Positions 41,064 to 61,734 of a DNA stretch of 64,000 nt are shown here, piece by piece. The DNA lies in IMG/VR virus record IMGVR_UViG_3300028833_000058. One strand, written 5' to 3'. Position numbers and translations under genes: made by a program. The first letter of the stretch is position 1. Each line of letters begins with the position of its first letter. The notes under the pieces were generated by a model, which saw only the letters and a list, made by a program, of their open reading frames with translations, searched no databases and was not told where the DNA came from. Origin of the DNA: a virus (lineage: Duplodnaviria; Caudoviricetes).

Positions 41064-41080
41064 TTCTATTGGGGTAGAAT

Positions 41081-42673: not shown

Positions 42674-44733
42674 CACATGAAACAAACGTAAGAGCCTATA
42701 AGAATATACCTTTTGAATATAGACTTAAAAAAGACGGCTATTATGATATTACAGGTACTCTTAAAGGTGGTTGGAGTGTTTTTAATCTAGAGTTTCAGGC
42801 TTTCAACGGACTTAATATGAGTTATGAACAATTAAGCGGTTCACCAATGGTTGTTAAAGCAAACGCTGGACAATTGCCTGACTTAACCAATATAAATGGT
42901 GTTACAGGGTGCTTAAAGGAAGTAGGAGTAGGACCAGGTATCTATACCAACTATACGATAAATGGCTCACCAATAATAGATATTTACACAGGTATTGTAT
43001 CAAATTTAAGCGGTAGTAACTATCTATCTGCACAGGATTTGGGATTGGTAACACCTGATAATAACAAAACTTGGGAAGTTGTAGTAAAATTTACAACAGG
43101 TACAAGTATACCTAGCAATGAAATGAACGTATTTTGTACATCAGGTAGGTATAGTTCATACATATTACAATTAAGAAGTAACAACTTATATGCATTTTTA
43201 AGTTCTAATGGTAGTTCTTGGGATATTGCAAATGGTGCAATAGTTATGAGTATTACCGCAAATACTACTTATAAGATTAAGATAGAATTTACAGGAACAG
43301 AATATAATTGGTACTCTTACGAGAACGATAATTGGGTTTTAAAATATACTGTAACAAGTTCTGTTTCTGTTTATGCAGGTGCTAGATATGTAATAGGTGA
43401 TGGTTTTGTAAATGGCGGGATAGTAGATTTATCTGAAACGTATATGAAAGTAAATGGACAAATCGCTTGGACTCCTGCTGTTGGTAATGGATATGTAGCA
43501 AAAGTGTCAGCAGATAATTTTACCCTTTTTGGAAGTCCAACAATAGACTCTGATAAAGTGGTTTCTGGTTTTTCTACGACAAGTGGGTTAAGACTTCCTG
43601 AAACAACACCAAGTACAATTACAGATTTAGATATTATCTTTAAGGGTAATCTAACAAATGTATCTGCTAATAGCGTCATCTTTGCACATGCTTCTTCAAA
43701 TCAAAGATATGTTGGTATAAGAGGTACTGGTAAATTCGCTATGTATATAGGAAGCTGGGTAGAAGGTACAACGGCTTTATCAACTAATACAGAATATTGG
43801 TTCAGAGTTATTAAAGACGGAAACAACTATAAAGGCTATTTATTAGTAGATAACAACTACACACTAGATACTTTACCTGCTTTAAACGATTGGTCACAAG
43901 AATTCTCTACAACAACAAACATCTTTAACGGATATCTTTTCGATGTCGGGTACAATTCATATTCAACAGGTGAGTATTTTAAAGGTTCTATTGACCTCAA
44001 AGGTTGTAGCGTGAATATTAACGGCAGTGAGTTTTGGAATCCATTTGTTAAGAAAATGCCTGTTGAGGGATTGCTTCCGAGTGGCGTAACCGATGACGGC
44101 TCTGCACAAACTTGGAACTTGTTTTATAACAACGGCGATTACAGACTTAATACAGCAAGTACGATGACAGGATATACTTGGGTAGGTTCTGTTGCAATAC
44201 CTGCACATAGTTCTCCAACACCTGCACCAACTCCGACTAAATCTTATGATGTAATTGGTACTTTAACTAACGACAATGGTGTATATAGTGGATTTAGTGA
44301 CAACGATTATATTCAGTTGTCTACAGATTTGTTAGTACCTGGTAATACATTTGTATTCAAATTTACAACAGGTAGCGACCTTACTGATTTCCAAAATATA
44401 CTTGCGCCTGATAATTGGTTCGAGTTATATGTTGAGAATGATAATTTATACGCTTGGATAGAATCAGAGGGAGGTCCGATAAGTTGCGGCTCTGTATCAA
44501 CAGAAACAACGTATTGGGCGAAAGTTGAAACAACTTCTGATTCAGTTACACTGAGCTATTCAACAGATGGGGTAACATATACAGGTGCGGTATCAAGCCA
44601 TTGTGTAAAAGGTACAATACAACAGTTCAATGTTGGACACGGAATATTTGATTATGCAAACAGAAATTGGAGCGGTAGTATTGATATAACTAATTCTTGT
44701 ATAAAGAATAGCAGTGGCACTGTCATTTGGTAA
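42670..44733 (+). CDS. tandem lectin/LamG-like beta-sandwich adhesin
   Basis: Three repeats of the 'GSP.I...VS.FS..NY ... KFTTG ... GSIDL..C.I..W' domain and a PTPAPTP linker. Confidence 0.65.
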   Translation: MTHETNVRAYKNIPFEYRLKKDGYYDITGTLKGGWSVFNLEFQAFNGLNMSYEQLSGSPMVVKANAGQLPDLTNINGVTGCLKEVGVGPGIYTNYTINGSPIIDIYTGIVSNLSGSNYLSAQDLGLVTPDNNKTWEVVVKFTTGTSIPSNEMNVFCTSGRYSSYILQLRSNNLYAFLSSNGSSWDIANGAIVMSITANTTYKIKIEFTGTEYNWYSYENDNWVLKYTVTSSVSVYAGARYVIGDGFVNGGIVDLSETYMKVNGQIAWTPAVGNGYVAKVSADNFTLFGSPTIDSDKVVSGFSTTSGLRLPETTPSTITDLDIIFKGNLTNVSANSVIFAHASSNQRYVGIRGTGKFAMYIGSWVEGTTALSTNTEYWFRVIKDGNNYKGYLLVDNNYTLDTLPALNDWSQEFSTTTNIFNGYLFDVGYNSYSTGEYFKGSIDLKGCSVNINGSEFWNPFVKKMPVEGLLPSGVTDDGSAQTWNLFYNNGDYRLNTASTMTGYTWVGSVAIPAHSSPTPAPTPTKSYDVIGTLTNDNGVYSGFSDNDYIQLSTDLLVPGNTFVFKFTTGSDLTDFQNILAPDNWFELYVENDNLYAWIESEGGPISCGSVSTETTYWAKVETTSDSVTLSYSTDGVTYTGAVSSHCVKGTIQQFNVGHGIFDYANRNWSGSIDITNSCIKNSSGTVIW

Positions 44734-45659: not shown

Positions 45660-46370
45660 ATGTTATTAGATATCATAAAAGCGATTTTAAGCCTTTTCAG
45701 TAAGCAAGAAGAACATAAACCACAAGTTGTTGCTGAAAAACCAAAATTGCTTACCTACGAGCAAATTTTGGCCATTAACGATAATAAAAATCCAGATATG
45801 TGTAAATATTACATCGATGCTTTAAATAAAGTACTTCCAGAGTATAAAATTGATACAAAATTAAGACTTTCACATTTTTTAGCTCAGATTCTTCATGAAA
45901 GTGGTAACTTTAGGTATAAGTCAGAGAATTTAAACTACTCTGCCACTGCTTTGCGTTCTGTCTTTCCAAAATATTTTAAGACAAACGCTATTGCAAATGA
46001 ATATGCAAGAAAACCAGAGAAGATTGGTAACAGGGTTTATGCCAATCGTATGGGAAACGGTAATGAAACTAGTGGAGATGGGTTCAAATATCGTGGAAGA
46101 GGTCTAATTCAGCTCACAGGTAAGTCAAATTATAGGGCCTGTGGAGAAGATTTAGGTATAGATTTATTAAAATTACCAGATTTGATTATATCAGACCCAG
46201 AAATTTGTGTAAAAACAGCCTGTTGGTTTTGGAATAGGAATAATTTGAATAGTTTAGCTGACCAAGACGATATTAAAACCATAACAAAACGTATAAATGG
46301 TGGTTTTAATGGTCTAGAAGATAGACAAAGGTTGTTGGCACGAGCTAAACAAGTTTTATTTACTTCCTAA
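45660..46370 (+). CDS. glycoside hydrolase family 19 endolysin
   Basis: Motifs FLAQILHESG, ENLNYS, YANRMGNG, YRGRGLIQLTG..NY and TKRINGG.NGLEDR. Confidence 0.93.
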   Translation: MLLDIIKAILSLFSKQEEHKPQVVAEKPKLLTYEQILAINDNKNPDMCKYYIDALNKVLPEYKIDTKLRLSHFLAQILHESGNFRYKSENLNYSATALRSVFPKYFKTNAIANEYARKPEKIGNRVYANRMGNGNETSGDGFKYRGRGLIQLTGKSNYRACGEDLGIDLLKLPDLIISDPEICVKTACWFWNRNNLNSLADQDDIKTITKRINGGFNGLEDRQRLLARAKQVLFTS

Positions 46371-47381
46371 CCAGTTATAAAACATTTTTAATGCACAATT
46401 TTTAGATTTTGACTTTATATGCATCTTACTAGCCATACAAGGTAATCTACAAAATGGATAATATTGACAATTTGAACATTTTAAGTTGTTTATAGCTATT
46501 TCAAATTGTCTTTTTGTGCAATTGTCGTTATCATAACATTCTGTTAAACTCATTCCGTATTCATTTAACATACTTAATGTACCAGACCTTAATAAACACG
46601 AGAATACAAGACGATTATTGATAAATGAGCAACTGTTTTTACATATACAATATCTTCCATTCGGATTATTGTAACTTTCAACTATGTGTTTAACTTCTTT
46701 TATGTTTTCAAATTTGTTTTCATAACAAAATTTATAAAATTCAAATAGGTCTTCTTCTGAAGGAGCATATTTTTCCCAATTTAAGTTATAAATGTAATAT
46801 TCTGGGTATATTTCAAACTTTCTTAAACGTTCTAATTGATTTCCTCTAATATATTCGTGTATACAATCTTTTGTTAAGGTTATTGATATCACTCTTGGAT
46901 TAAAAATATCAATGTTTTTCCACCAAATTTCTTCTGTGTTACCATGAAATCTAGATATTGGGTCGTAAGATGTCGCTATATAACAATCTTTTTCTAATAA
47001 GTCATGTACTCTAGTTACTTTATTGAACACTAAATTTGTTGAAAAGCAAAATTCACATTTATAATTATTGCTGTTACACCAGTCTCTTAAAATGGTTACC
47101 ATTTGTTTATAGCAGGTGAAATATTCATCACCTAAAGAATCCATAAACAACTCCCCACCCCAAAATCTAAAGACAAGATTTTTAATCTCTTTTCTCTTTT
47201 GTTTGATTGTGTCTAATTCATGTATCAAAACGAATGTAGAATCGATAATTTCTTCACACGTTTTCAAATCAGTATGTTTTTCAAAACAGAACTTACAGTG
47301 TAAATTACATCTATCAAAGAGAATTACACATATTTCTAAAGTGTCGTTGTGTTTATAAAAATTATCAAATAGATTATTCAT
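46356..47381 (-). CDS. radical SAM protein 6 (SPASM-like tail)
   Basis: CNLHCKFC, WGGE, C-terminal CSNCQYYPFCRLPC. Confidence 0.9.
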   Translation of the reverse strand: MNNLFDNFYKHNDTLEICVILFDRCNLHCKFCFEKHTDLKTCEEIIDSTFVLIHELDTIKQKRKEIKNLVFRFWGGELFMDSLGDEYFTCYKQMVTILRDWCNSNNYKCEFCFSTNLVFNKVTRVHDLLEKDCYIATSYDPISRFHGNTEEIWWKNIDIFNPRVISITLTKDCIHEYIRGNQLERLRKFEIYPEYYIYNLNWEKYAPSEEDLFEFYKFCYENKFENIKEVKHIVESYNNPNGRYCICKNSCSFINNRLVFSCLLRSGTLSMLNEYGMSLTECYDNDNCTKRQFEIAINNLKCSNCQYYPFCRLPCMASKMHIKSKSKNCALKMFYNWLGSK

Positions 47382-48537
47382 CGTTTACTATCTCAAACAG
47401 CATTTTATTAATACATTCTTTTGGTTTCCAAATGAACTGATGATTTTGATAACACCCACGTAAATTTCTTTCTGAACACCACGGTTTATATTTACATAAG
47501 TTACATTTATATCTCTTATTGAAAAATGTTTCAACATGCTCATGATGTTTTAGACAGGTAAATTCACCATTCAATTTGTTTTTTATTATGTTTTCTTTTT
47601 TAATGTCATCGTGTTCTGGCCAAAAGATGTAAGGAATTAGTTCACACGGTGATTCTTCTCTGCCAAACATCGGTATAAATTCAACTGTTTCACAATACGA
47701 TTTGAAATCATCTTTGTTTATTTTAATATCAATATTGTGTGACATGAAGACATTTAACTCAATTCCATGCCTATTCTTAATTTCATTATAGAAGTTACGA
47801 TAATCGTCAAAGGTAGGCACTTCTGACATACTATTAGAATTATAAGGTTGATATTCGTTAAAAACAAGTGACAATCGTTTGTTTTTATCCATTTCTAATA
47901 ATTTATCAAAGAGAATGACACTATTGTTATTTTTGTCTTCTATGTATTTGTTCATAGAAGATTTAGTCAAAATAGTCTCTATTAACAAATCATCTTCTTT
48001 TACCAATACCTTTTCTAAATTGTTTTGCCAAATTTTTAACGATAAATCATTTTTAAATCTTCCGTGTACATCATAAGAAGTTGCTATGTTGACTAACTTG
48101 TTTTTTTGTGATATGTAATCAAATAAGTTAAATAATCTATCTAATCTTTCTTTTTCTAATATTAAGTTTGAAAACAACGTATTGTGGAGTTTTACTGGCT
48201 TATTAGTGGTTATTTCATAGAGTGAATCAAACAATTTGTAAAAATAATCAAAATATTCTTTCGGCAACACTCCTATTTCACCACCGATAAAATAATGCTT
48301 TAACAATGTTCCGTTAGGTAATCTGTCTATATTTTCATTTAGCCATTGTATTTCATACTCTCCGATTTTTTTAAACTCTTCTAACGACATTAGTTTGTTA
48401 TCGTGTATTGATTTTAAACAACAAAAATCACAATTGTTATTACACTGAGCAAAAGTAAAAGCATAAGGGAGTAATCCTAAAACTTTAGTCTTTTGTACCA
48501 TCTCTATTAAATCGTTAGTACGTTTATCACTTAACAT
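47374..48537 (-). CDS. radical SAM protein 5
   Basis: CNNNCDFC, IGGE, C-terminal CNLCKYKPWC...GC...C. Confidence 0.88.
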   Translation of the reverse strand: MLSDKRTNDLIEMVQKTKVLGLLPYAFTFAQCNNNCDFCCLKSIHDNKLMSLEEFKKIGEYEIQWLNENIDRLPNGTLLKHYFIGGEIGVLPKEYFDYFYKLFDSLYEITTNKPVKLHNTLFSNLILEKERLDRLFNLFDYISQKNKLVNIATSYDVHGRFKNDLSLKIWQNNLEKVLVKEDDLLIETILTKSSMNKYIEDKNNNSVILFDKLLEMDKNKRLSLVFNEYQPYNSNSMSEVPTFDDYRNFYNEIKNRHGIELNVFMSHNIDIKINKDDFKSYCETVEFIPMFGREESPCELIPYIFWPEHDDIKKENIIKNKLNGEFTCLKHHEHVETFFNKRYKCNLCKYKPWCSERNLRGCYQNHQFIWKPKECINKMLFEIVNDE

Positions 48538-49523
48538 TGTAAATTTTCCTTTATTTTGTCAATTAACATTTTTAACCCTGGACACCCTGTTTTATCGAAA
48601 CTTAACTGACAACATTCGCCTCTACATATGTTGTAATAGGAACAAGTTAAACATCTCTCGTTCAATTTTCTTTCTTGTGATATCAATTTCTTATGTAATG
48701 ATTCATTGTACCCATTGTTGTCAACAATGTGAATATTTGATATATTAGGGCAAGTTGCTATAGTACCATCAGTATTAACTGTTATGACATTCTCCATACA
48801 TCTTCTTTCTCTGCAACCAATTGGGTCATTTCCTTTTATAATGTTTTCTAGTTCTTCAAAAAGTTGTATTTTGATGTCATGGTGTTGTAAATTGTAAATA
48901 TATAGTTCTGTTAACCATTTATCTATATCTACGTTATCTGGTTTTATTTTTACAACAGCAGCTCTACCAGTTTCTGTTATTCTTTCAAAATTTATAATTT
49001 TTATTCCTAATTCTTTGAAATAGTTCATTAATTTACTTGGTTTATGTGACAAAGTAAATTTATTCAATGTAACAATTACTTCAACATCGAATCCTTTTTG
49101 TAACAAAGATTTTACATTATTTTCCCAAATGTTACGTTGATTAACTGTTGTGAACCTATAGTCATCAACATCCCAACTTGTTTTTAGAAATTTTTTGTCA
49201 AAAAGTGAAAAAAGTTCTATTAGTTTATCAGTGAGTTTGTATGTTAAGTTTGTTGTAGCACTCCATTTTATAGTTGGGTAACTCTTAATCAATTCGATAT
49301 AATTTTGTATTGTATTGTCTTCTGCTTGAAAAAAAGGTTCTCCACCATGGAATACACACTCTATTTGTTTAAATTTGTTTACATGTGAGTCTAGGATGTT
49401 TCTGATTACATTTACATCAAGTCTTTTTTTATCAGAAAATATACCAGAGTTCATATAGCATCCTTTGCAATTTAAATTACATTGGTTTGTCATACATAGA
49501 TAGATTTTCTTATACTCATTCAT
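48531..49523 (-). CDS. radical SAM/SPASM protein 4
   Basis: CNLNCKGC, HGGEP, C....C...ITVNTDG.IATCP, CLTCSYYNICRGECC. Likely start 49523 (track gives 49547). Confidence 0.92.
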   Translation of the reverse strand: MNEYKKIYLCMTNQCNLNCKGCYMNSGIFSDKKRLDVNVIRNILDSHVNKFKQIECVFHGGEPFFQAEDNTIQNYIELIKSYPTIKWSATTNLTYKLTDKLIELFSLFDKKFLKTSWDVDDYRFTTVNQRNIWENNVKSLLQKGFDVEVIVTLNKFTLSHKPSKLMNYFKELGIKIINFERITETGRAAVVKIKPDNVDIDKWLTELYIYNLQHHDIKIQLFEELENIIKGNDPIGCRERRCMENVITVNTDGTIATCPNISNIHIVDNNGYNESLHKKLISQERKLNERCLTCSYYNICRGECCQLSFDKTGCPGLKMLIDKIKENLQC

Positions 49524-49527
49524 GTTA

Positions 49528-50457
49528 TCACCATCTTTCGTTTTCAATATCTTCAGCTACTTTTAAAAGGTTTTTACAGCCATCACATTTTATTTTAGTT
49601 AAGTGTTCTGTCCAACAATTTCCATAATATTTACAATTTCCACATCTCTTTATATACTCCATACGTTCTTTTTTAGCGTCAGCTATATAACTTTCTACGT
49701 CATCATACCACTTAAAATACTCTAAATTATCGTTAGTGTAATAAACTGCACCAAACTTTCCATCTGGTGAAATTCTTATACACTGGTCATTCGTAGCTAT
49801 AGGATATGTTCGATTTAAACAAGATTTTAAACCGTTTTCTAAACACAATTTGTAGTCAAAATCCTTTTCGTGAGACGTGTAATAAGTTAAAATATTTATA
49901 AGAAAGTTTTCATATTGGTCTTGTGTGATTTTATATACATCGCCAGTGTTTATACTCGGATAGTATTTTACGAAAGACACCCATTGTATATTCAAACCGT
50001 TATATCCATCTAAAGCATCTTTTGGGGTTTTTCTTATGAGAGAAGGACTAACTATACTCAAAACTGTTAAATTTTCTAAATTTACACCTTTCTTCAGGAT
50101 AGACTTTATATAATCATAATCTGGTCTTTCTTCGTTTAAAGATGTTGAAAAGAAAGTATTCTTGAATATATGTAACTTTGAGATGTCATAGAAGTTCGTA
50201 GTTAAATAATTCTTACATTTGTATTGAATTAATATATCGTTTAACTCTTTTAAGTATGTATTCGGTAAGAGTGTTATCTCTCCACCATACAGATTAAATT
50301 TTTCAATTTCAAAATATTGTGAAATTTGTTTAAGTCTTTGTTTTAATGTATTTAAGTCCAATATTGATTCACCATGGTGATTGTTTAAATAACAAAACTC
50401 ACAATTGTTATTACAAAGGTACGTTGGAAAAATTGAAACGATTATTTTATTTTTCAT
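49528..50457 (-). CDS. radical SAM protein 3
   Basis: CNNNCEFC, YGGE, CIRISPDG, CGNCKYYGNC...CDGC. Likely start 50457. Confidence 0.9.
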   Translation of the reverse strand: MKNKIIVSIFPTYLCNNNCEFCYLNNHHGESILDLNTLKQRLKQISQYFEIEKFNLYGGEITLLPNTYLKELNDILIQYKCKNYLTTNFYDISKLHIFKNTFFSTSLNEERPDYDYIKSILKKGVNLENLTVLSIVSPSLIRKTPKDALDGYNGLNIQWVSFVKYYPSINTGDVYKITQDQYENFLINILTYYTSHEKDFDYKLCLENGLKSCLNRTYPIATNDQCIRISPDGKFGAVYYTNDNLEYFKWYDDVESYIADAKKERMEYIKRCGNCKYYGNCWTEHLTKIKCDGCKNLLKVAEDIENERW

Positions 50458-51268
50458 TCCTGACCCTTTCATAAAATTTTGGAAAGAAAGAACATCTTGT
50501 ATGTAATTTACAGGGAATACAATTTTTATTATACATACATGTAAGACATCTTTTTAAAACATGCGGCTTGTAGTTTTCTGCAAATACACATTTTTCTTGT
50601 ATCGTTCCGTTTGGTAAAATTGTTTTTGTATTGCAATTAAAATTCCAATTTAATATCTGTTCTTTTATTAAATTTTTTATCATCAAATTTTGAATTGTCC
50701 ATTCTTCATCTAATTTACATAACCAATCGTCTACTGTGTTTTGAAAATCGTCATTTAAGTCATTGTCAATGAGACATTCGAAAAGTATACTGTCAATGTT
50801 TTCAAAACTTTTAATGATTTCAATGAGATGTTCTGGATTCATTTTAACAACATCTTTGTCTAACGTTATCAATAGCAATGGTGATTTTTTTAAAAGTTTT
50901 AAGTTATTTAGCCAGATTTTAAACAATTCATTTGACGAAAATCTATTTGGATTCCAACTTGTTGCTACACTCAAGTCATGTTTGTTTATTTCGTCTATAA
51001 TTTGTTTATCTGTAAAGATAAGATTTGTTGTAATAGAGGTTATTACATCTGTATCTAAGATTTCTATAAAAAGTTTCTTATTAAGAGTAGGTTCCCCACC
51101 ATGAAGAATAAAATTTGCTTCTGGATATTTATGTTTTTGGGACAACATTGTTTTGAAAAAAACTTCTTTGTTAAAACTATACGGTTTATTTTTCACTGTA
51201 CAGTGCGAACAGTTTAGATTACATTTCCAACTAGGTACGATGTAAAATGTTAATTCAGATGAGTCCAT
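50447..51268 (-). CDS. radical SAM protein 2
   Basis: CNLNCSHC, HGGEP, TILPNG...C, CLTCMYNKNCIPC. Likely start 51268. Confidence 0.9.
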   Translation of the reverse strand: MDSSELTFYIVPSWKCNLNCSHCTVKNKPYSFNKEVFFKTMLSQKHKYPEANFILHGGEPTLNKKLFIEILDTDVITSITTNLIFTDKQIIDEINKHDLSVATSWNPNRFSSNELFKIWLNNLKLLKKSPLLLITLDKDVVKMNPEHLIEIIKSFENIDSILFECLIDNDLNDDFQNTVDDWLCKLDEEWTIQNLMIKNLIKEQILNWNFNCNTKTILPNGTIQEKCVFAENYKPHVLKRCLTCMYNKNCIPCKLHTRCSFFPKFYERVRNEK

Positions 51269-52205
51269 ATTTTGATAAATCATTGTAGTTTTCTTTCATC
51301 CATTTACATTGCTCATTCTTATATTGTTTAGAATAAAATACGTTTAGTGAGCAAGAATTACACAAATGGAACATTTTACATGTTAAACATTTTTCAAAAA
51401 GAACATCTTTTTGTATATTTATTTCATCTTTTGAACTTATAATATCTTCACAATGGTGTTCTATTAATTCTCCAGAGTTATTTACATAAACAACTTTATT
51501 GTATAAGCAATGTTTATACGACTTCGGATATGGACATTTTCCGTTATAAAATGCGTCTAAGCTTTCTAATTGGTCACCATATCCATTTTTTATAATATCT
51601 AAATATAGTTTGATTAACTTATATCTAGGATAGAAAGATTTACTTAACCCAAGTGGCATTTGTTGATTTAATTTAAATGTAGTACCTAGTTTTTTTGCCA
51701 ATTCACCTGCTTTTAGTACTTCGGTTTCATTGTTTTCGTTGACAATGTAAATAAACATTAGTTTTTCATTGTACATTTCATAAAATTTGTTAAAAATTTT
51801 TACAAATTCGTCTTCTGTGAACACTGAATTTTCTCTTCTGTCTTCACCATATTGAAAACTAGTGACTACCCCAACATGAGGGTTAGTAAAAAGATATTCA
51901 AATTTTTCTGGGTCTTTATACCATAGCGTTAAATTAGACGTTAATGACAAATTGTAATCAGTTCCATTCTGTTCTAAACAATTTATCAAGTCTAAAAAAT
52001 ACGTCTTTGGATTAACCAATGGTTCACCACCAGTTATAATTACATCAGATGGTTTATATTCTTTTAAAAACTGTTTTAATTTTTCAGGAACGTATTCGTG
52101 TAAAGGTATATTTAAAAGTTTAGCACTACAAAATGTACAATTAAAGTTACAAACACTAGTTGGTTTGATAATAAGTGTTTTTTTACCAAATTCTTTTTGA
52201 TTCAT
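51255..52205 (-). CDS. radical SAM protein 1
   Basis: IIKPTSVCNFNCTFC, TGGEP, CLTCKMFHLCNSC. Confidence 0.92.
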   Translation of the reverse strand: MNQKEFGKKTLIIKPTSVCNFNCTFCSAKLLNIPLHEYVPEKLKQFLKEYKPSDVIITGGEPLVNPKTYFLDLINCLEQNGTDYNLSLTSNLTLWYKDPEKFEYLFTNPHVGVVTSFQYGEDRRENSVFTEDEFVKIFNKFYEMYNEKLMFIYIVNENNETEVLKAGELAKKLGTTFKLNQQMPLGLSKSFYPRYKLIKLYLDIIKNGYGDQLESLDAFYNGKCPYPKSYKHCLYNKVVYVNNSGELIEHHCEDIISSKDEINIQKDVLFEKCLTCKMFHLCNSCSLNVFYSKQYKNEQCKWMKENYNDLSKYGLI

Positions 52206-52216
52206 GCCAGTAACCT

Positions 52217-52888
52217 TTATACTAATCCAAAAATTCTCACAGAAGGTAAAGATAACATAGCCTTATAAAATCCGAATTCTTTGGATATATTCTTTATAAT
52301 GTATTCGTATAAAACATGCTCATAGTCATTTGTGTAATATAGCCTAATCGCATCACATTCGATTGGATATTTTATTAGTATGTGTTTAATCGTTTCATAA
52401 AAAACAGGTTTTTCCTTTACAATCTTCCCCTTATAGGAATCGTATTCTATTAATTTATTATCTTTATTTTTTTCTAACAAAAATGTTACTTCATCTAAAG
52501 ATATTAAAAATTGTATTATGTCTTTTATTAATTCTTGATTACGATTTCTAAAAATCTTTATTTCATCTTGTGATAGTATTGATTCTCTAAAGATGATTTC
52601 ATTTGATACAAGATTCAATATACATTGATTAAATTGGTCTATACCCTTATCTAACATCAAATTTGCTTTTAAATATGTTAATAACCATAACTCTTTTGTT
52701 TCGTAGTCACAATTTTCAAAATCAAAAGAACAATTTAACTCTAAGTTTCTTATGTAGATGATTGCTGATAAAATCTGGTTATCCACATCTTCAAATTTTA
52801 TGTCATTGGGATTGATTACATACATGTTAGAAGAGTAATCTGTATCTTCAATGTATTCTTCATTCAGTGGTAATCCAGTGTGTTGCAT
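52217..52888 (-). CDS. hypothetical accessory protein of the radical SAM operon
   Basis: 223 aa, separated by 11-12 nt from both neighbours; no CxxxCxxC motif. Confidence 0.65.
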   Translation of the reverse strand: MQHTGLPLNEEYIEDTDYSSNMYVINPNDIKFEDVDNQILSAIIYIRNLELNCSFDFENCDYETKELWLLTYLKANLMLDKGIDQFNQCILNLVSNEIIFRESILSQDEIKIFRNRNQELIKDIIQFLISLDEVTFLLEKNKDNKLIEYDSYKGKIVKEKPVFYETIKHILIKYPIECDAIRLYYTNDYEHVLYEYIIKNISKEFGFYKAMLSLPSVRIFGLV

Positions 52889-52900
52889 GTTTTTCCTTTC

Positions 52901-53710
52901 TTATCTTCTGCTTCTATGGTTACTGTGGCAATTACTATGACAGTTAGAATGACACCAATATTTAACAAAAGTTACACAATTACTACCGTTTGGAGTTGAA
53001 GAACTACCATTCCACATCCATGAAGCATTGTTTACATCATCACAGTCTCTTTTAAAGTTGTCTAACTGTTGTTCTACATTTGCTATCGCTTTTATCAATT
53101 TGTTAATAGACATTGATGATATCTTCGTTGTGTTTAACACATACGTTGTATTATTGTTCCAATTTACAGAGCCTAACGGGTCTGATGAATATCTAGTAAC
53201 ATCTGTGTCTTTATTGTTAACTTTTGGTGGTAACTGTTCTGCGGTGCTAGTATATTCGTTTACAGATTGTTCGTTTACACGTGTGATATCAAAAGATTTT
53301 TTAAAATACGCCCATTTTACTTGCTCAATTGGTTTATTTAAATCAGATGGTAAAACTTGTTCTCCAGTTCCAGAAACGCTTTTTATATAAAGTTTTTTAC
53401 ATCTACCAAGTTCTACAAATACTTTTTTTATAAGTTCGTACGTAGTGTTAGCTTCAGGTATTTTGTTAGTATTGATAGTTGTGTCATTGTTTATAACATT
53501 GGCTATATCGGACAACAGTTCATTTCTTGAACATAAATATTTTTTATCAATGGCATCTGGAACAGAAGTAGTTGAATCCCAATAGTTAGTTTTAGGAAGT
53601 ATGTCATTGCATAAACTGTATAATCTGTCTTTAAAAGATGGTACAATTATGTCGTCTTTAGAAGTTATAACAGTGTTACCAGAAAGCTTTTTAGTAGTTA
53701 TTTGTACCAT
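52901..53710 (-). CDS. putative radical SAM substrate with a C-terminal (CHSN)3 repeat
   Basis: Ends ...KYWCHSNCHSNCHSNHRSRR*; first gene of the operon. Confidence 0.75.
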   Translation of the reverse strand: MVQITTKKLSGNTVITSKDDIIVPSFKDRLYSLCNDILPKTNYWDSTTSVPDAIDKKYLCSRNELLSDIANVINNDTTINTNKIPEANTTYELIKKVFVELGRCKKLYIKSVSGTGEQVLPSDLNKPIEQVKWAYFKKSFDITRVNEQSVNEYTSTAEQLPPKVNNKDTDVTRYSSDPLGSVNWNNNTTYVLNTTKISSMSINKLIKAIANVEQQLDNFKRDCDDVNNASWMWNGSSSTPNGSNCVTFVKYWCHSNCHSNCHSNHRSRR

Positions 53711-54858: not shown

Positions 54859-57168
54859 TTAAAAGGATGGCTCCCAATACGTTGTGGTACCGTCAATACT
54901 TCTGATACAAGTATCATTCAAGAGTATACACATATCATAACCAGGATTACTCCAGTTTGAACCAATCGTCATTGTTCCTGTTCCAGATGTGATTGGGAAT
55001 GTACCACCGTACATATTTATATCAAAAGAGTTGAGCGTCATCCATGCGCTAGAAGGAATATTGTCTTTTGTCCATTCGTTGTTATAATCTTGCGCATATA
55101 ATACTTCAACCATTGAACCGCTTTGAGTATATTTGAAGAACACATACATATCCATTCCGTCAAATGTTACACCACTTGCTAATTCTCCAAATATTGGAAC
55201 GTTTGCACCAAACATTTGACTATATGGGTCATTTACATTCCAATAACATAACGAGTTACCTGATATTTCAAAAGCACTCGCTTGTCCTATTGCCCACGAG
55301 CTTGAATCATAACTTAGTTTAACCTTTGTTATAAACTCAAACTCATCTGTTGGTAGAGTATAATCAGATGTAGCATAGTTGCTATAGTCTGTAGAAGATA
55401 ATATACCAGTTGTTGTATCTAATGTAGGAGTTCCTACCAAAGTAATATTAGAGGTTGGCAACGGGTCTAACGTAATCGATTCAGTTTGATTAGAACCTGT
55501 TAAGGTGATTGTTCCAGTTGTAGCTGCTGTTGTTGAAGTTCTTGCCACTGAATAGTCAATGGTTTTACCTGCACCATTTGCGATATTGATTGTATAAGTA
55601 CCACTAGATTTTGTAACAGGTATTTCTATATTACCAACTGTGAACTTTATAGAATCCACAGGGTCATTTGTAATTGAAACTGTTAAAGTTACATAAGATT
55701 GTGGTTCAGAGATACTGACATTTCTCGTTTCTCCTTCTGTGAGGTTATCAACTGTTTGATAATCAGCGATGTTACTACTTGGGAAATATGTTTGATATGG
55801 GAAATCACCTACACCAAAACTTGAGTATGTATTTATACCAGGTACTTGTGGATTCCAATATACATCTGTGCCAGTTTTTATATAACAATCTGCAAGATGA
55901 ATTGTTCCTGAGAATTGACCTGCAGCATTGTCATATCCAATCATATCACCCCAACCAAAATCTGTACGAAGTGTTAAGCTGTTAGAACCTTGTGTGTATG
56001 TTATTCCATCTGTTGACAGATATCCGTCAATAGTCATATTTGTTTCATCTATAACAAATTTAAACCAATATTTAGTATTTGGTGATAAACTGTTTAATCC
56101 AAAATCTAGAAAATTGTAACCATATTCATATTCCATGATTCCTATTGAAGTACCATCAAGTATGACACTGTAATTCATTGGACCATTTGCTCCATAGAAA
56201 AGTCCTTTCCATCCAGTTAAATCTGATGGAGTTGTAAAACAAATAACTGTTTCTATAGGAACAGATGAAGAAGGTTTTTGTACATCATATAAATAGTTAT
56301 TTGAATTAAAGTTTGATACATCACCAGTATAAACATCTAAAGTAGGATTACCTTGAATACTAAAGTTTGAATACTGTCCTTTGTTACTTTTTACAAAATC
56401 TTTATAAGATAAACAAGTAACTATATTTGGGTTCATACTAAAGTTAATTGTGGCAGCACCAATGTCATATAGGATAGTAGTATTAGTTCCACTAAACCCG
56501 TTTTTAACATCATCCCAGTTTTGTAATATACTTTCTAGTGTATATGGGAAGTGAACACTACATCCTGTAACACCTCTTAACATACCGTTAAATTGATTTG
56601 TATATGTGTTTCCGAAACTATTGGTTGTTAAAGCTGGAAAAGATAAAGATTGTAAAGATGTACAATCAGCGAATGCATATTGAAGAGCATTGTCTGAAGT
56701 AATAGATGATAAAAGTGGCAAAGAAACAGAAGTGAGTGATGAACAACCCTCAAAAATATCATAAAAACAGCTTGAACCAGATAAACTTGTTAAACTTGGA
56801 AAAGACGCTGATGTTAAATTTGAACAACCCATAAAAGTTTGATAACAAGCTTTTTCGTTTGATACACTAGTTAAGTCTGGGAAAGAAACTGTGGAAATAG
56901 TGCTGTTAGGAGCATGTTCATACCAAACACCACCAAATTGATTATACAATACACGACTTCCAATATCCCGAACACCTGTGAATACTAAATTTGTAGTAAC
57001 TCCAGATGGGTTTTGTAATACACCATTAGAATCTACATTACCAAGCAGACCGTCAAGAGTGGCACCATATTTAGTAGAAGTACCACCGCCACCTTCTTGC
57101 ATAAGAATGGCTTTACCATCGTCTAAAATTACTTCACCTGATGTATTAACTAAAACTTTTGTTGTCAT
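54859..57168 (-). CDS. LRR plus lectin-like adhesin (paralog of 37892 and 38757)
   Basis: Shared N-terminal motif, BspA-type LRRs and two beta-sandwich domains. Confidence 0.72.
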   Translation of the reverse strand: MTTKVLVNTSGEVILDDGKAILMQEGGGGTSTKYGATLDGLLGNVDSNGVLQNPSGVTTNLVFTGVRDIGSRVLYNQFGGVWYEHAPNSTISTVSFPDLTSVSNEKACYQTFMGCSNLTSASFPSLTSLSGSSCFYDIFEGCSSLTSVSLPLLSSITSDNALQYAFADCTSLQSLSFPALTTNSFGNTYTNQFNGMLRGVTGCSVHFPYTLESILQNWDDVKNGFSGTNTTILYDIGAATINFSMNPNIVTCLSYKDFVKSNKGQYSNFSIQGNPTLDVYTGDVSNFNSNNYLYDVQKPSSSVPIETVICFTTPSDLTGWKGLFYGANGPMNYSVILDGTSIGIMEYEYGYNFLDFGLNSLSPNTKYWFKFVIDETNMTIDGYLSTDGITYTQGSNSLTLRTDFGWGDMIGYDNAAGQFSGTIHLADCYIKTGTDVYWNPQVPGINTYSSFGVGDFPYQTYFPSSNIADYQTVDNLTEGETRNVSISEPQSYVTLTVSITNDPVDSIKFTVGNIEIPVTKSSGTYTINIANGAGKTIDYSVARTSTTAATTGTITLTGSNQTESITLDPLPTSNITLVGTPTLDTTTGILSSTDYSNYATSDYTLPTDEFEFITKVKLSYDSSSWAIGQASAFEISGNSLCYWNVNDPYSQMFGANVPIFGELASGVTFDGMDMYVFFKYTQSGSMVEVLYAQDYNNEWTKDNIPSSAWMTLNSFDINMYGGTFPITSGTGTMTIGSNWSNPGYDMCILLNDTCIRSIDGTTTYWEPSF

Positions 57169-57190
57169 AAATCTTTACCCCATGCTAAAG

Positions 57191-57523
57191 TTATTTTGTT
57201 TCTATTTCTTCGTTTTCTTCGATTTGTTTTCTTTTTCTTTTCATTATGAGTTTTGTTAACCATTCTCTAATGAAGTTGTTCAACCAGTCATACAATGGTC
57301 TACTGCATAATATGACAAGACCAGTTATACCTACTCTTGTTCTGCTGTCATTTATCCAGTAGTTTAACGCCAAATAACAAGAAGAACCTATTACAATAGC
57401 TATCAACATATCTTTGAAAAATTGTTTTTTTGTTTCATATCTTATTATACCTGTCATCAAGCAGACAAAGATAAAAAACCCAAATATTGTGATGTCTATT
57501 AACAATTTTTCATTTTCTAACAT
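57191..57523 (-). CDS. putative holin / small membrane protein
   Basis: 110 aa with three hydrophobic segments and a highly charged C-terminus. Confidence 0.55.
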   Translation of the reverse strand: MLENEKLLIDITIFGFFIFVCLMTGIIRYETKKQFFKDMLIAIVIGSSCYLALNYWINDSRTRVGITGLVILCSRPLYDWLNNFIREWLTKLIMKRKRKQIEENEEIETK

Positions 57524-57544
57524 TGATTCACCTCGTTATCAAAA

Positions 57545-59344: not shown

Positions 59345-59365
59345 CTTACTTTTCCTTTATAATTC

Positions 59366-61663
59366 TTATTTGTTATCAAAATCTATACGAATAACACATT
59401 CTACTAAACGTTTCGTTCCAGGGTCTCTATCTATGATTTTACCTATACATCTACCGTTTTTAACAGTCGATGCTGTACCAGGTTTTATTCTTGATAAATA
59501 TATTTTATCACCAAAGTAGTTTATAGAGTTTCCATCCATTAAAACAGGAACTCTACCGACCAAAGCTACAGGTAAATAGTTCTCATTTTTCTTTTCACCT
59601 AACTGAAGACCTGGTTTACTTGAAATAACACCATCAGCTTCAAATTGAGCCTTAGAAATTTCTTTAGTACCTGCACCAAATGTAATCAAAGTACCAGGTT
59701 CGTAAAACTTATCTGCTTCATAATATTCAGCTAAGTCGGCCCATTCAGCACGATAAGCTTTTCCCCAGAAATCAACTTTACCATTATCCCAATGTGTCGA
59801 TTGCTTTTCAGTTGTTATATCAACATTTTTACCGACAACCATTTGTTTCCATTGAATGTAAGTGTTTACATAGATAGGATTATTCCAACTATAACCAGCT
59901 TGGCTAGAATCAGTAGGTAGAGTTTTCTGAATATAATTGTTTTGAAGAGTTTGTGGTGTTACAGAATATTTACTAGCAGCTTTTCTATTTATTACTACAT
60001 CTTTGACTTGAGCGTCTGTTGCATATCTAGTTGTACCATAATTAGTTTCACTTGCTTCATTACGTAAGTCTAAAGCTAACTGCATTGAATTTTGACCAGT
60101 AACCCAACCTAAGAAACAATCTGTACGTCTTAAAGTAGGTTTACCTTTATCATCACCTCTGCCACAATATACAGGTTTGTTTAACCATTGTGAATCAAAG
60201 TTCCATACATATCTATTTGTTTTTGCAGAACTAACTTTAAATCTTGCCCCATTACCATTTCTAGGCATTTGAGAATTTTTGTCATAGTATACTGAATCAC
60301 AAATATATGAATCATTACCTAAATCAATAGCACCAGAAGTTGGTCCAAGCAAAAAGATACCATCTTCTTCAACACCTGTTGTAATTTCACCGTCATTGGT
60401 AACAATTTTTACTTGTACCTTCAATATGAGGTTTTCTTTTACAACAATATCTAAAATATCACCAGATTGGTATCCGCTACCACCGTTGTATACTTTTACT
60501 TTGTATGTATAGCTATCTTGGAAGTTACTAACTTCACCAGAATATACAATGTTATCACCTACACGAAGACCAATAGGCATTTGCTCATTTAACGTTAAAT
60601 CTTCATCTGTTTCGTAAATACCTTCTGCTCTTTCGTACTTTTGTGTTTCATCACTCCAATATACAAACATGTAGTCTTGCACATCATTAGCGAACTTATC
60701 TTGACCTACATATATATAGTTAGTTGTTGGTTGAAAATACGCCCAGTCACCTGTGTAACCAGTGTAATCACCTGTTCCAGTATTTAACGGTCTAGGAACT
60801 GCTAAAGCTGGCATATTAGAACCAAAAAGGTTATCCACTAAGTAACAGTTATGCGGCATGCGTGAAGAATCTGTTGGGTTGTCTAATAACGTTTCGTTTG
60901 GAACTTCTGGTAAGTCCATTTCGTAATCTTCTATAACGTCTAAATTAGAAACAAAACCTAAGTTACTTAAAACTGTGTTCATATAAAACTTAAGTCTGTT
61001 ACCAATTCTTGTTTCACCTACAGCGTATTTTGTGACAACAGAAGGTAATGTAGCTATAGCAAACAATATGTCATGAACACCGTCTGCATCTTTTACATAT
61101 AATCCAATTGTACCAATGTCCCATTCTTCTTCACCAGTATCTGAAATTGCATCGATAGGTAAATCTAAAAGATATTGTAATCCACCAGTAGAATTATTGT
61201 ATCTCCATTTCAAAATACGTTTAAGGTCTTCTACGTTATGTTTAGCATTTAGTGTTCCTACAGTGTAAACAATGTTACCACTTGCTAAAAGATTTTCATC
61301 TGTCCATTCTATAAGAGGTATACCTGGATTGTTAACGGTTTGGTCGATTATTTTTATACCACTTATGGTGAGTTTATATCCACCTATGACTGTGTCAGTT
61401 AACGATTTTAAGCCTTCTGAAGTAATAACAAGTCTATAAGTCTCATCTGGTGCACAAATTACCCAGTTTACACCGTTATATTGCTCTAATTCCCAACCAT
61501 CTGTATCATTACCAATGGCACAATACATACCTGCTTGCAATTTATTTGGAAAATTTATAAAATATTGGTCACGACTTATAGGGTTACCTGCACCAGTACG
61601 TCTAGCGAACCAAAATTCGCTGTCTATCTCATAGACTTTCAATTGCTCTTTTGTAACTAACAT
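59366..61663 (-). CDS. tail/baseplate-attached fibre protein with a C-terminal intramolecular-chaperone (peptidase G2-like) domain
   Basis: N-terminal fibre-attachment pattern (LVITSEG..., IGTIGLY..., LFAIA); C-terminal WADLAEYY...GVISSKPG...PVALVGRVPV. Confidence 0.72.
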   Translation of the reverse strand: MLVTKEQLKVYEIDSEFWFARRTGAGNPISRDQYFINFPNKLQAGMYCAIGNDTDGWELEQYNGVNWVICAPDETYRLVITSEGLKSLTDTVIGGYKLTISGIKIIDQTVNNPGIPLIEWTDENLLASGNIVYTVGTLNAKHNVEDLKRILKWRYNNSTGGLQYLLDLPIDAISDTGEEEWDIGTIGLYVKDADGVHDILFAIATLPSVVTKYAVGETRIGNRLKFYMNTVLSNLGFVSNLDVIEDYEMDLPEVPNETLLDNPTDSSRMPHNCYLVDNLFGSNMPALAVPRPLNTGTGDYTGYTGDWAYFQPTTNYIYVGQDKFANDVQDYMFVYWSDETQKYERAEGIYETDEDLTLNEQMPIGLRVGDNIVYSGEVSNFQDSYTYKVKVYNGGSGYQSGDILDIVVKENLILKVQVKIVTNDGEITTGVEEDGIFLLGPTSGAIDLGNDSYICDSVYYDKNSQMPRNGNGARFKVSSAKTNRYVWNFDSQWLNKPVYCGRGDDKGKPTLRRTDCFLGWVTGQNSMQLALDLRNEASETNYGTTRYATDAQVKDVVINRKAASKYSVTPQTLQNNYIQKTLPTDSSQAGYSWNNPIYVNTYIQWKQMVVGKNVDITTEKQSTHWDNGKVDFWGKAYRAEWADLAEYYEADKFYEPGTLITFGAGTKEISKAQFEADGVISSKPGLQLGEKKNENYLPVALVGRVPVLMDGNSINYFGDKIYLSRIKPGTASTVKNGRCIGKIIDRDPGTKRLVECVIRIDFDNK

Positions 61664-61734
61664 TTTTATCTTAAATCCTTTGGTTTAAATCATATATATA
61701 AGAACTAAAAAAGAATGTCTTATACGTTAAAAAA

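What the first reader, a model, noticed from the sequence alone, without database searches (positions are those of the whole stretch)
46356..53710. Phage operon with six radical SAM enzymes and a (CHSN)3-tailed substrate: candidate RiPP-like protein-modification system
Seen: eight co-oriented genes with overlaps or gaps of 12 nt or less. They encode a 269 aa protein ending W(CHSN)3HRSRR, a 223 aa unknown, and six divergent CxxxCxxC/GGE radical SAM proteins, each with a C-terminal CxxC-x5-C SPASM-like cluster. No transporter, peptidase or standalone PqqD-sized ORF is recognisable. The operon lies between the endolysin and tail genes. Established: rSAM-SPASM enzymes install thioether or C-C crosslinks in Cys- or aromatic-repeat peptides (sactipeptides, ranthipeptides, triceptides; CXXX-repeat and His-Xaa-Ser systems). 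Inference: the phage post-translationally modifies the tail of a full-size protein, possibly a virion component, rather than making a secreted peptide. Six enzymes for a 12-residue repeat suggests multi-step chemistry or a heteromeric complex. Radical SAM clusters do occur in some large phages, so novelty must be checked.
Basis: partly seen in the sequence, partly recalled or inferred. Interest (0 to 1): 0.92.

Follow-up and report, generated by a model that had tools for sequence, protein, structure and literature searches.

The report
Radical-SAM cassette maturing Cys-His-tailed phage protein
This large uncultured phage carries a divergent copy of a very widespread but unstudied gene set, in which several iron-sulfur "radical SAM" enzymes travel with one protein ending in a near-invariant Cys-His repeat tail; a homologue of that protein is found in virus particles, so the enzymes probably modify the tail chemically before assembly.

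Summary
Eight tightly packed minus-strand genes (46356-53710) encode:
- a 269-aa protein (T) ending W(CHSN)3HRSRR;
- a 223-aa unknown protein (U);
- six intact radical SAM proteins with Cys-rich SPASM-like C-termini.

This is not a one-off.
- The tail (consensus [V/I]-CHxS-CHxS-CHxS-R[G/S]RR-COOH) ends more than 150 proteins in viral contigs.
- The T family has 868 clusters at 50% identity.
- T nearly always sits with a U homologue and with four ancient radical SAM orthogroups (R1, R3, R4, R6). The window adds two lineage-specific paralogues, R2 and R5.
- Cultured carriers include Atu_ph07, the RSL2/RSF1/FLC/SURPRISE13 group, Phosso and pPa_SNUABM_DT01.
- The core also lies in chromosomes of predatory Bdellovibrionota.
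- In the published Atu_ph07 virion proteome the T homologue gp170 is present with 8 peptides, mostly in the top gel band. The enzymes and U are absent from that proteome.

Best reading (about 0.6): U and the enzymes cross-link the tail of a virion protein. The chemistry has not been shown. No curated family fits. The closest characterised analogue is the bacterial HXS system.

This scan has already flagged the same system on at least ten other genomes. This copy is a divergent, oxygenase-free CHSN/RSRR subtype.

The parts
52901..53710 (-). T: 269-aa protein with the C-terminal (CHSN)3-HRSRR tail; proposed substrate and probable virion protein
   Evidence: ORF. Close relatives keep 2-4 CHxN repeats plus RxRR. 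Its central helix/strand motif is homologous to the large type-A T family (hhalign 98.6%). No Pfam or NCBIfam family matches. The homologue Atu_ph07 gp170 is in the virion proteome.
52901..52957 (-). Tail core W-CHSN-CHSN-CHSN-H-RSRR plus the stop codon
   Evidence: In the family logo the positions the search left free are Ser or Asn in 97% (140/144) of tails at each of the first two repeats and 94% (135/144) at the third. Cys, His and Arg were fixed by the search pattern.
52217..52888 (-). U: 223-aa protein of unknown fold, a conserved partner usually encoded just downstream of T
   Evidence: Homologues lie in 126 of the fetched loci (cluster c2) and next to T in Atu_ph07, RSL2 and Bdellovibrionota. 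Equivalent to phrog_20767, unknown function. No PDB, Pfam or NCBIfam match.
51255..52205 (-). R6: radical SAM/SPASM-like enzyme of the R6 orthogroup
   Evidence: Pfam Radical_SAM 55 bits; motifs; clade support 99.
50447..51283 (-). R5: radical SAM/SPASM-like enzyme, a lineage-specific paralogue grouping with R3
   Evidence: Orthologues seen only in L009, L189 and L206.
49528..50472 (-). R4: radical SAM/SPASM-like enzyme of the R4 orthogroup
   Evidence: clade support 100.
48531..49547 (-). R3: radical SAM/SPASM enzyme of the R3 orthogroup; in most other cassettes this gene sits directly upstream of T
   Evidence: Near full-length but sub-threshold alignment to anSME (60 bits) and PapB (58 bits). 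Carries CX2CX5CX3C. R3-T adjacency.
47374..48537 (-). R2: divergent radical SAM enzyme, a long-branch paralogue within the R1 clade
   Evidence: Pfam Radical_SAM 21 bits, below cutoff, but CX3CX2C, GGE and 8 C-terminal Cys are intact. Groups with L009_2520. dN/dS 0.08.
46356..47381 (-). R1: radical SAM/SPASM enzyme of the R1 orthogroup
   Evidence: phrog_1802 E=1e-18; CX2CX5CX3C; clade support 96.
59366..61663 (-). 765-aa fibre-like protein upstream, with a C-terminal domain shared with the fibre (c4) genes that precede the cassette in other phages
   Evidence: BLASTP E=5e-12 over residues 636-712 to L145 c4. The region of L145 c4 that overlaps this match is its Peptidase_G2 IMC-domain hit, which is marginal (24.5 bits against a cutoff of 25).
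54859..57168 (-). 769-aa probable fibre or receptor-binding protein just upstream of the operon
   Evidence: Weak BspA-type LRR hit, 26.8 bits against a cutoff of 27.7; position.

Best explanation
The operon is a divergent copy (CHSN/RSRR subtype) of a widespread phage and Bdellovibrionota protein-maturation cassette.

Shown:
- T, U and four radical SAM orthogroups (R1, R3, R4, R6) are inherited together.
- The only strongly conserved part of T is its last 16 or so residues.
- In one cultured phage, T is in the virion and the enzymes and U are not.

Inferred:
- During late infection T is made in the cytoplasm with a flexible C-terminal tail.
- The leaderless, anSME-like SPASM enzymes, possibly with U as an adaptor, each abstract a hydrogen atom from a defined carbon in the repeated C-H-x-S/N units.
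- This creates intramolecular links: Cys-S-to-carbon thioethers and/or His-to-C-beta three-residue cyclophanes on the H-x-S/N motif.
- The result is a rigid polycyclic, cationic (RxRR) C-terminal knot.
- Matured T is then built into the particle near the fibres or baseplate, whose genes always flank the cassette.
- R2 and R5 are lineage-specific duplicates that add or split steps.
For: Co-occurrence:
- Tail-motif scans found 30, 3 and at least 120 viral contigs. Tail-ending ORFs were found in all but three of those loci, and in about 39 of the 47 genome contigs.
- 114 of 129 viral and 31 of 38 genomic loci with enough flank have at least one radical-SAM-like ORF within 9 kb; 77 viral loci have one directly adjacent.
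- The gene order cupin-R3-T-U-...-R1-R6-R4 recurs.

Conservation:
- T bodies are about 20% identical, but the tail is near-invariant. The fourth residue of each unit, which the search did not fix, is Ser or Asn in 94-97% of tails.
- The four orthogroups each contain the window's enzyme, phage isolates, viral contigs and Bdellovibrionota.
- All six window enzymes keep their catalytic motifs and are under purifying selection (dS not resolved for R4).

Enzyme type:
- CX3CX2C starts at residues 19-32, so there is no fused RRE.
- The best full-length similarity is to anSME, PapB, DynA and cyclophane synthases.

Virion evidence (Atu_ph07 Table S5):
- gp170 (31.9 kDa, the T homologue) has 8 unique peptides and 35% coverage.
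- It is most abundant in band 1, where 75-140 kDa proteins run.
- gp164, 165, 168, 169, 171 and 172 are not listed.

Precedents:
- HXS, in which rSAM enzymes mature a full-size HxS-repeat protein (PMC13128918).
- rSAM His-C2-to-C-beta cyclophanes made by HtkB and HaaB (PMC11499958).
Against: - No mass-spectrometric or biochemical evidence of any modification exists for any member.
- None of the enzymes reaches the cutoff of any curated maturase family, so the chemistry cannot be read from homology.
- Pfam's SPASM model is not matched by the window proteins.
- The folds of T and U are unknown: AF2 pLDDT was 45 and 61.5 with no convincing structural neighbour.
- Three Cys plus three His could simply bind metal.
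- Virion presence is shown for one distant homologue only, not for this phage.
- An earlier scan note records that part of the same claim, made on other DNA, failed a later check. I could not find out which part.
Confidence: 0.6

Rival explanations
1. The (Cys-His)3 tail is an unmodified metal- or Fe-S-binding module. T would act as a scaffold, carrier or redox partner, while the radical SAM enzymes work on something else, such as the neighbouring fibre protein, a glycan or a small molecule.
For: Cys and His are classic metal ligands. The cassette always lies beside fibre genes. Most cassettes also carry cupin and 2OG-Fe(II) oxygenases, which could hydroxylate a fibre. No modification has been shown.
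Against: Ser/Asn at the fourth position of each unit is as conserved as a ligand would be, yet is not a ligand. R3 is translationally coupled to or adjacent to T in most loci. In Bdellovibrionota the T-U-enzyme core persists while the fibre-type neighbours vary. T is in the virion and the enzymes are not, which does not fit a role as the enzymes' redox partner.
Confidence: 0.17
2. It is a phage version of the HXS idea. Matured T would not be structural but would act in the infected cell, with its basic His-x-Ser tail engaging DNA or the envelope, to exclude superinfecting phages or counter a defence.
For: The family consensus C-H-x-S is a His-Xaa-Ser repeat followed by basic residues, like HxsA's SHRSS motif. 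HxsA is a full-size protein matured by two rSAM enzymes plus a small partner. The type-A R3 hits the HxsB N-terminal region at E=1e-11.
Against: All HXS family HMMs are far below cutoff, and no HxsA or HxsD match exists. T has no signal peptide or peptidoglycan-binding domain. The cassette sits in the late structural module. gp170 is a virion protein.
Confidence: 0.1
3. T is a precursor from which the modified tail is released as a peptide-derived cofactor or toxin, in the manner of PQQ, mycofactocin or a RiPP.
For: A conserved C-terminal core with a variable N-terminal body resembles cofactor precursors, where the conserved core is at or near the C-terminus. Multi-enzyme tailoring is typical of RiPPs.
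Against: No peptidase or exporter is conserved in the cassette. The body is 125-360 aa and carries its own conserved motifs. gp170 peptides covering 35% of the protein are found in virions.
Confidence: 0.06

Closest known systems
HXS antiphage system (HxsA with rSAM enzymes HxsB and HxsC plus HxsD; TIGR03976-03979; Li et al., Nat Commun 2026, PMC13128918)
   Same: Several radical SAM enzymes plus a small accessory protein mature a full-size protein, not a short peptide. That protein carries tandem His-Xaa-Ser units rich in basic residues, and a covalent change (+8 Da) maps to one SHRSS unit. The phage family consensus is C-H-x-S repeated three times, then RGRR.
   Different: There is no HMM-level membership: HxsB and HxsC score 14-24 bits on the window enzymes and 44 bits on the type-A R3 orthologue, against cutoffs of 268-370, and there is no HxsA or HxsD hit. 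Each unit is preceded by an invariant Cys. The repeats sit at the extreme C-terminus. There are 4-7 enzymes rather than 2. T has no signal peptide or peptidoglycan-binding domain. The system is encoded by phages and predatory bacteria, and T's homologue is in the virion. In this window the unit is CHSN, so it is not even a strict HxS.
Anaerobic sulfatase-maturating enzyme (anSME, TIGR03942) and QhpD-type minimal SPASM protein maturases
   Same: These are leaderless SPASM enzymes without an RRE that act on Cys/Ser in a short motif of a full-length protein. anSME is R3's best NCBIfam hit, aligned nearly end to end (residues 20-319).
   Different: The score is 60 bits against a cutoff of 349. The C/S-x-P-x-R target motif is absent from T. 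Here four or more different paralogues are needed.
PapB ranthipeptide maturase and sactipeptide/ranthipeptide thioether synthases
   Same: These are SPASM enzymes that link Cys sulfur to a carbon of a residue a few positions away, in repeated CX3-type motifs. PapB is R3's second-best hit (58 bits; 55 bits for the type-A R3).
   Different: Far below the cutoff of 340. There is no leader peptide or RRE. The substrate is a 125-360 aa protein, and acceptor Asp/Glu residues are absent.
Three-residue cyclophane synthases (triceptides; His-specific HtkB and HaaB, PMC11499958)
   Same: H-S-N and H-x-S fit the aromatic-X-X motif. His-C2-to-C-beta links made by rSAM enzymes are established. R3 weakly hits AmcB, YhhB, GrrM and FxsB.
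   Different: All hits are far below cutoff. The invariant Cys has no role in triceptides. This is a protein substrate, not a secreted RiPP.

Membership tests
Radical SAM superfamily (PF04055) | CX3CX2C cluster motif near the N-terminus plus a GGE SAM-binding motif; Pfam model above its gathering score | tested here: met
   All six have CX3CX2C at residues 19-32 and GGE. PF04055 is above its cutoff for R3, R4, R5 and R6 (31-55 bits against 29.5) and below it for R1 (13.7) and R2 (21.1). R1 and four others hit phrog_1802 'radical SAM'.
SPASM subfamily (TIGR04085 / PF13186) | C-terminal seven-Cys motif CX9-15GX4C ... CX2CX5CX3C ... C that binds two auxiliary 4Fe-4S clusters | tested here: inconclusive
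   R1 and R3 carry an exact CX2CX5CX3C. All six have CX2CX5C and 7-11 C-terminal Cys. No window protein hit Pfam SPASM at E<=0.1. The type-A R3 orthologue passes TIGR04085 (34.5 bits against 27).
HXS system (HxsA/B/C/D) | HxsB (TIGR03978), HxsC (TIGR03977), HxsD (TIGR03976) and the HxS-repeat HxsA (TIGR03979) | tested here: not met
   HxsB/HxsC score 14-24 bits on R4, R5 and R6 against cutoffs of 268-370. T and U hit no HxsA or HxsD model at E<=0.1, and the same holds for type-A members.
Anaerobic sulfatase maturase (TIGR03942) | Equivalog HMM above 349 bits; substrate motif C/S-x-P-x-R | tested here: not met
   R3 scores 60.2 bits. T has no CxPxR motif.
PapB ranthipeptide maturase (NF047865) | Equivalog HMM above 340 bits; short precursor with Cys-X3-Asp/Glu repeats | tested here: not met
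   R3 scores 58 bits. The tail has no acidic acceptor residues.
CXXX-repeat peptide maturase system (TIGR04115) | Equivalog-domain HMM above 350 bits, next to a CXXX-repeat peptide | tested here: not met
   The model does not appear in the lists shown for the window enzymes, although only the best 25 of R3's 46 hits were shown. The type-A R3 scores 33.8 bits. The Cys spacing i, i+4 does resemble the target.
Classical RiPP pathway | Short precursor with a leader; an RRE/PqqD domain; a leader peptidase and/or exporter | tested here: not met
   T is 269 aa. No PqqD, peptidase or transporter was found in the operon or the small flanking ORFs. The CX3CX2C motif lies at the extreme N-terminus, so no RRE is fused.
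Uncharacterised phage/Bdellovibrionota 'CHxS-tail' cassette (phrog_35144 T, phrog_20767 U; defined here and in earlier notes of this scan) | T with a C-terminal (CHx[S/N])n-RxRR-COOH tail; a U homologue; orthologues of R1, R3, R4 and R6 | tested here: met
   Tail. T core motif matches by hhalign at 98.6%. U homology to L009, L021, L027 and type-A U. Four orthogroups in the tree. The window's T and U are too divergent to hit the PHROG models themselves.

The most novel reading that the evidence does not exclude
The radical SAM enzymes turn the Cys-His tail into a covalent, possibly metal-binding prosthetic structure. This structure staples T into an SDS-resistant high-molecular-weight fibre or baseplate assembly, and it acts at the prey or host envelope. 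That would be a new class of enzyme-built virion 'warhead' shared by jumbo phages and predatory Bdellovibrionota.
Probability: 0.2. Interest if true: 0.92.

Novelty: new variant of a known kind. Interest (0 to 1): 0.78.

Why it matters
Radical SAM maturation of proteins is known for a handful of enzymes and RiPPs, and since 2026 for one antiphage effector. It has not been described for a virus-particle protein.

- The family is large: 868 clusters at 50% identity.
- It needs four conserved, non-redundant radical SAM enzymes for a 16-residue tail.
- It is present in cultivable phages of Agrobacterium, Ralstonia, Burkholderia, Pseudomonas and Sinorhizobium.
- It is shared with predatory bacteria that, like phages, must breach another cell's envelope.

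The system therefore offers new radical chemistry on Cys/His/Ser motifs, a new step in virion assembly, and a tractable test system. The window's oxygenase-free six-enzyme subtype gives a natural minimal comparison.

Tried and rejected
- DNA-level similarity of the operon to cultured phages: none.
- tblastn of the window's T against cultured phages: none. The body is too divergent; only the motif scan found relatives.
- AF2 of the window's T with a 9-sequence alignment: pLDDT 45, unusable.
- AF2 of a type-A T with 66 sequences: pLDDT 61.5. Foldseek against PDB gave nothing at E<=0.001. VIA-align wide gave a best Z of 5.3, which is within noise. BFVD returned only uncharacterised family members, including Atu_ph07 gp170.
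- Profile searches of T and U against PDB sequences: nothing below E=0.07.
- ESM Atlas search for U: scores of 0.89 or less to DUF2357-type clusters and TM below 0.4; treated as noise.
- Complex prediction of T with U: no verdict (score 0.00), so it is not evidence either way.
- The portal protein has no close cultured relative.
- Literature searches found the genes listed only as 'accessory/unknown'.
- QueE, NrdG, MoaA and viperin assignments were considered and rejected. These hits cover only the N-terminal cluster-binding region, at 15-33 bits.
- I could not establish which part of the earlier claim 'fell' on checking.

Full report
**Observation**

The window is part of a large uncultured tailed phage. 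It is about 30% G+C and encodes a portal, a prohead protease, a GroEL-like chaperonin, an SbcC-like nuclease and many fibre-like genes. It has no close cultured relative.

At 46356-53710 the minus strand carries eight genes. Neighbours overlap by 7-29 nt or are 11-12 nt apart. In transcription order they are:
- T (269 aa);
- U (223 aa);
- six radical SAM proteins, which I call R6, R5, R4, R3, R2 and R1.

T ends WCHSNCHSNCHSNHRSRR, and the three CHSN units use different codons.

Each enzyme has CX3CX2C at residues 19-32, a GGE motif, and 7-11 further C-terminal cysteines including CX2CX5C. R1 and R3 carry the full SPASM signature CX2CX5CX3C. Because the cluster motif sits at the extreme N-terminus, none has a fused RRE/PqqD domain. 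No PqqD, peptidase or transporter was found in the operon or in the small ORFs beside it.

A syntenic relative from another metagenome has the same eight genes in the same order. Seven of the eight give dN/dS of 0.08-0.27; dS for R4 was saturated. None of the six enzymes is decaying.

**Family assignment**

Pfam calls four of the six enzymes Radical_SAM above threshold and two below. No NCBIfam model reaches its cutoff.

The only near full-length alignments are R3 to the anaerobic sulfatase maturase (60 bits against a cutoff of 349), to PapB (58 against 340), and to DynA and several cyclophane synthases. Hits to MoaA, NrdG, QueE and viperin cover only the N-terminal cluster region.

T and U match nothing in Pfam, NCBIfam, PHROGs or PDB sequences.

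**The system is widespread**

A tblastn search with R3 led to Agrobacterium jumbo phage Atu_ph07. There a 296-aa protein, gp170, ends CHSSCHASCHNSRSRR. It lies between an R3 orthologue (gp171) and a U homologue (gp169). R1, R6 and R4 orthologues follow, and a cupin (gp172) precedes. Ralstonia phage RSL2 has the same arrangement, with ORF068 ending CHSSCHTSCHGSRGRR.

Back-translated tail patterns gave the following:

| Pattern or collection | Hits |
|---|---|
| ...RSRR-stop, viral contigs | 30 contigs |
| Window-type tail with one extra residue, viral contigs | 3 contigs |
| General pattern, species-representative genomes | 47 contigs, about 39 with genuine tail-ending ORFs |

Across 145 distinct tail proteins (124-364 aa) the consensus is [V/I]-C-H-[S/A/T]-S-C-H-[S/T]-S-C-H-[G/S/T]-S-R-[G/S]-R-R-COOH. 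Cys, His and Arg were fixed by the search. The fourth residue of each unit was not fixed, yet it is Ser in 79-90% of tails and Asn in most of the rest. The family unit is therefore Cys plus His-Xaa-Ser, and the window carries the rarer Asn variant.

A profile of type-A T proteins finds 868 clusters (50% identity) at E<=0.001 and 629 at E<=1e-10 among 1.84 billion representatives. Of the 150 best hits listed, nearly all are stand-alone proteins of about 175-230 aa.

T bodies are only about 20% identical. They nevertheless share a central helix-strand motif with the window's clade (hhalign 98.6%).

**Cassette anatomy**

Clustering all ORFs of the fetched loci shows that T, U (126 loci) and the radical SAM genes travel together. 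With strict motif criteria, 114 of 129 viral and 31 of 38 genomic loci with enough flank have a radical-SAM-like ORF within 9 kb of T. In 77 viral loci one is directly adjacent.

The architectures are:

| Architecture | Gene order |
|---|---|
| Common (type A) | large DUF4815 protein, fibre-like protein with a weak (below-cutoff) Peptidase_G2 intramolecular-chaperone hit, cupin, R3, T, U, an unknown of about 360 aa, R1, R6, one or two 2OG-Fe(II) oxygenases, R4 |
| Second (type B) | fibre gene, two tandem T genes of about 126 aa, then 4-7 radical SAM genes |
| Window's clade (L009, L021, L027, L189, L206) | no cupin or oxygenases; R3 placed downstream; R5 and R2 added |

The fibre neighbourhood is kept in the window. 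The 765-aa protein at 59366-61663 shares the C-terminal domain of the type-A fibre gene.

**Enzyme phylogeny**

I built a maximum-likelihood tree of 74 enzymes. It is a quick search with SH-aLRT support, and the careful search did not finish. It resolves four deep clades:
- R6 (support 99);
- R4 (100);
- R1 with R2 (95);
- R3 with R5 (88).

Each clade holds the window's enzyme, viral contigs, Atu_ph07 and/or RSF1, and Bdellovibrionota. 'Six enzymes' is therefore four ancient, non-redundant orthogroups plus two lineage-specific duplicates. This argues for several distinct steps rather than redundancy.

**Predatory bacteria**

About 27 of the genuine genomic hits are in Bdellovibrionota, including contigs of 1.3-2.8 Mb. 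There the T-U-R1/R3/R4/R6 core, often with a cupin and a 2OG oxygenase, lies among cellular genes. Neighbours include:
- a Peptidase_S74 fibre-like protein;
- a 2355-aa RCC1/Big_2 surface protein;
- a clostripain;
- a transglutaminase-like protein;
- an MFS transporter.

The system is sporadic in the phylum: U was found in 7 of 201 sampled genomes. T has no signal peptide there.

**Virion evidence, checked here**

Supplementary Table S5 of the Atu_ph07 paper (PMC6102473) lists gp170 (31.89 kDa, matching the 296-aa T) with 8 unique peptides and 35% coverage. The neighbouring fibre-like gp176 and gp177 are also listed. The radical SAM proteins gp164, 165, 168 and 171, U (gp169) and the cupin (gp172) are not listed (gene identities).

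This is the pattern expected for non-structural maturation enzymes and a structural substrate.

gp170 is also recorded in bands 1-9 and as most abundant in band 1. In the same table, band 1 holds proteins of 75-140 kDa, while typical 30-kDa proteins peak in band 8. This suggests an SDS-resistant oligomer or a covalent adduct. That is my inference from a published table, and many proteins smear across bands in that gel.

**Mechanism**

Shown:
- T, U and the enzymes are co-inherited.
- The tail is strongly conserved.
- The catalytic motifs are intact.
- One T homologue is localised to the virion.

Inferred: leaderless SPASM enzymes, like anSME, act directly on the flexible C-terminal tail. The tail has low pLDDT in both models. 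U possibly acts as an adaptor. The enzymes would install intramolecular links.

Two chemistries fit the motif:
- Cys-sulfur-to-carbon thioethers, as in sacti- and ranthipeptides, where SPASM auxiliary clusters bind substrate Cys (established knowledge, not tested here).
- Three-residue His-to-C-beta cyclophanes on H-x-S/N, for which His-specific rSAM enzymes exist (HtkB and HaaB, PMC11499958).

The closest characterised system is HXS. There HxsB and HxsC, with HxsD, mature the full-size HxS-repeat protein HxsA, and a +8 Da change maps to SHRSS (PMC13128918). Membership in HXS fails at the HMM level, so this is a functional analogy, not a family assignment.

I put 0.6 on 'the tail of a virion protein is modified by these enzymes'. 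The rivals are:
- an unmodified metal-binding tail with another substrate for the enzymes (0.17);
- an HXS-like intracellular exclusion effector (0.10);
- a released peptide or cofactor (0.06).

**Novelty and status**

The papers I could search only list these genes as accessory or of unknown function. PHROGs labels T and U 'unknown function'.

This scan has already reported the same system on at least ten other genomes. Those reports include the Bdellovibrionota link and the HXS analogy. One note says that part of the claim failed a later check on other DNA, and I could not learn which part.

What this window adds:
- a divergent, oxygenase-free CHSN/RSRR subtype with six enzymes;
- the four-orthogroup tree;
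- the direct reading of Table S5, including the band-1 migration.

I class it as a new variant of a known kind (radical SAM/SPASM protein maturation), with high interest because it is widespread, experimentally tractable and chemically undefined.

Noticed in passing
PMC6102473 Table S5 (Atu_ph07 gp170, the homologue of window 52901-53710): The 31.9-kDa T homologue is recorded as most abundant in gel band 1, where 75-140 kDa proteins run, whereas other proteins of about 30 kDa peak in band 8. This suggests an SDS-resistant multimer or a covalent adduct.
   Followed up: partly
L036, L054, L061, L111 and other loci (for example L111:4689-5452): A second cassette architecture has two tandem T genes of about 126 aa directly after a very large fibre gene (up to 2037 aa). 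They are followed by 4-7 radical SAM genes of a separate cluster (c3) and an unknown protein of about 367 aa (c12).
   Followed up: partly
L203 (G001:C2:433000-453000), L204, L205: Chromosomal copies of the T-U-radical-SAM core occur in Bdellovibrionota. Their neighbours include a 2355-aa RCC1/Big_2 protein, a Peptidase_S74 fibre-like protein, a clostripain and a transglutaminase-like protein. One locus also has a B12-binding radical SAM protein (L205:17172-18911).
   Followed up: partly
window 10276-11925 (+): A phage-encoded GroEL-like chaperonin (phrog_5725, E=1e-126) lies in the head-gene region.
   Followed up: no
window 17468-22795 (+): A 1775-aa protein whose only hit is phrog_36119 (unknown function) over residues 965-1182. 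It is possibly a giant virion or ejection protein.
   Followed up: no
window 38757-44733 (+) and 54859-63849 (-): Two convergent blocks of large fibre-like genes (530-769 aa) flank the lysis gene and the radical SAM operon. They have almost no Pfam signal apart from a weak, below-cutoff BspA-type LRR hit in 54859-57168. Several look paralogous, with shared 'GFS...T' and 'Y/WNP' segments in the translations.
   Followed up: no
L184 (Dysosmobacter segnis assembly, 4.3-kb contig) and L189 (249-kb contig binned as a Bacilli MAG): Cassette copies assigned to gut Firmicutes. L189's enzymes are closest to the window's and it has three R1 paralogues; it is probably a jumbo-phage contig binned into a MAG. 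L184's T shows extra internal CHxS units.
   Followed up: no
window 48531-49547 and 49528-50472: The longest ORFs of R3 (TTG start) and R4 are 32 and 18 codons longer than the genes called in the syntenic relative L206. The true starts are probably internal ATGs, which would shorten the apparent overlaps.
   Followed up: partly
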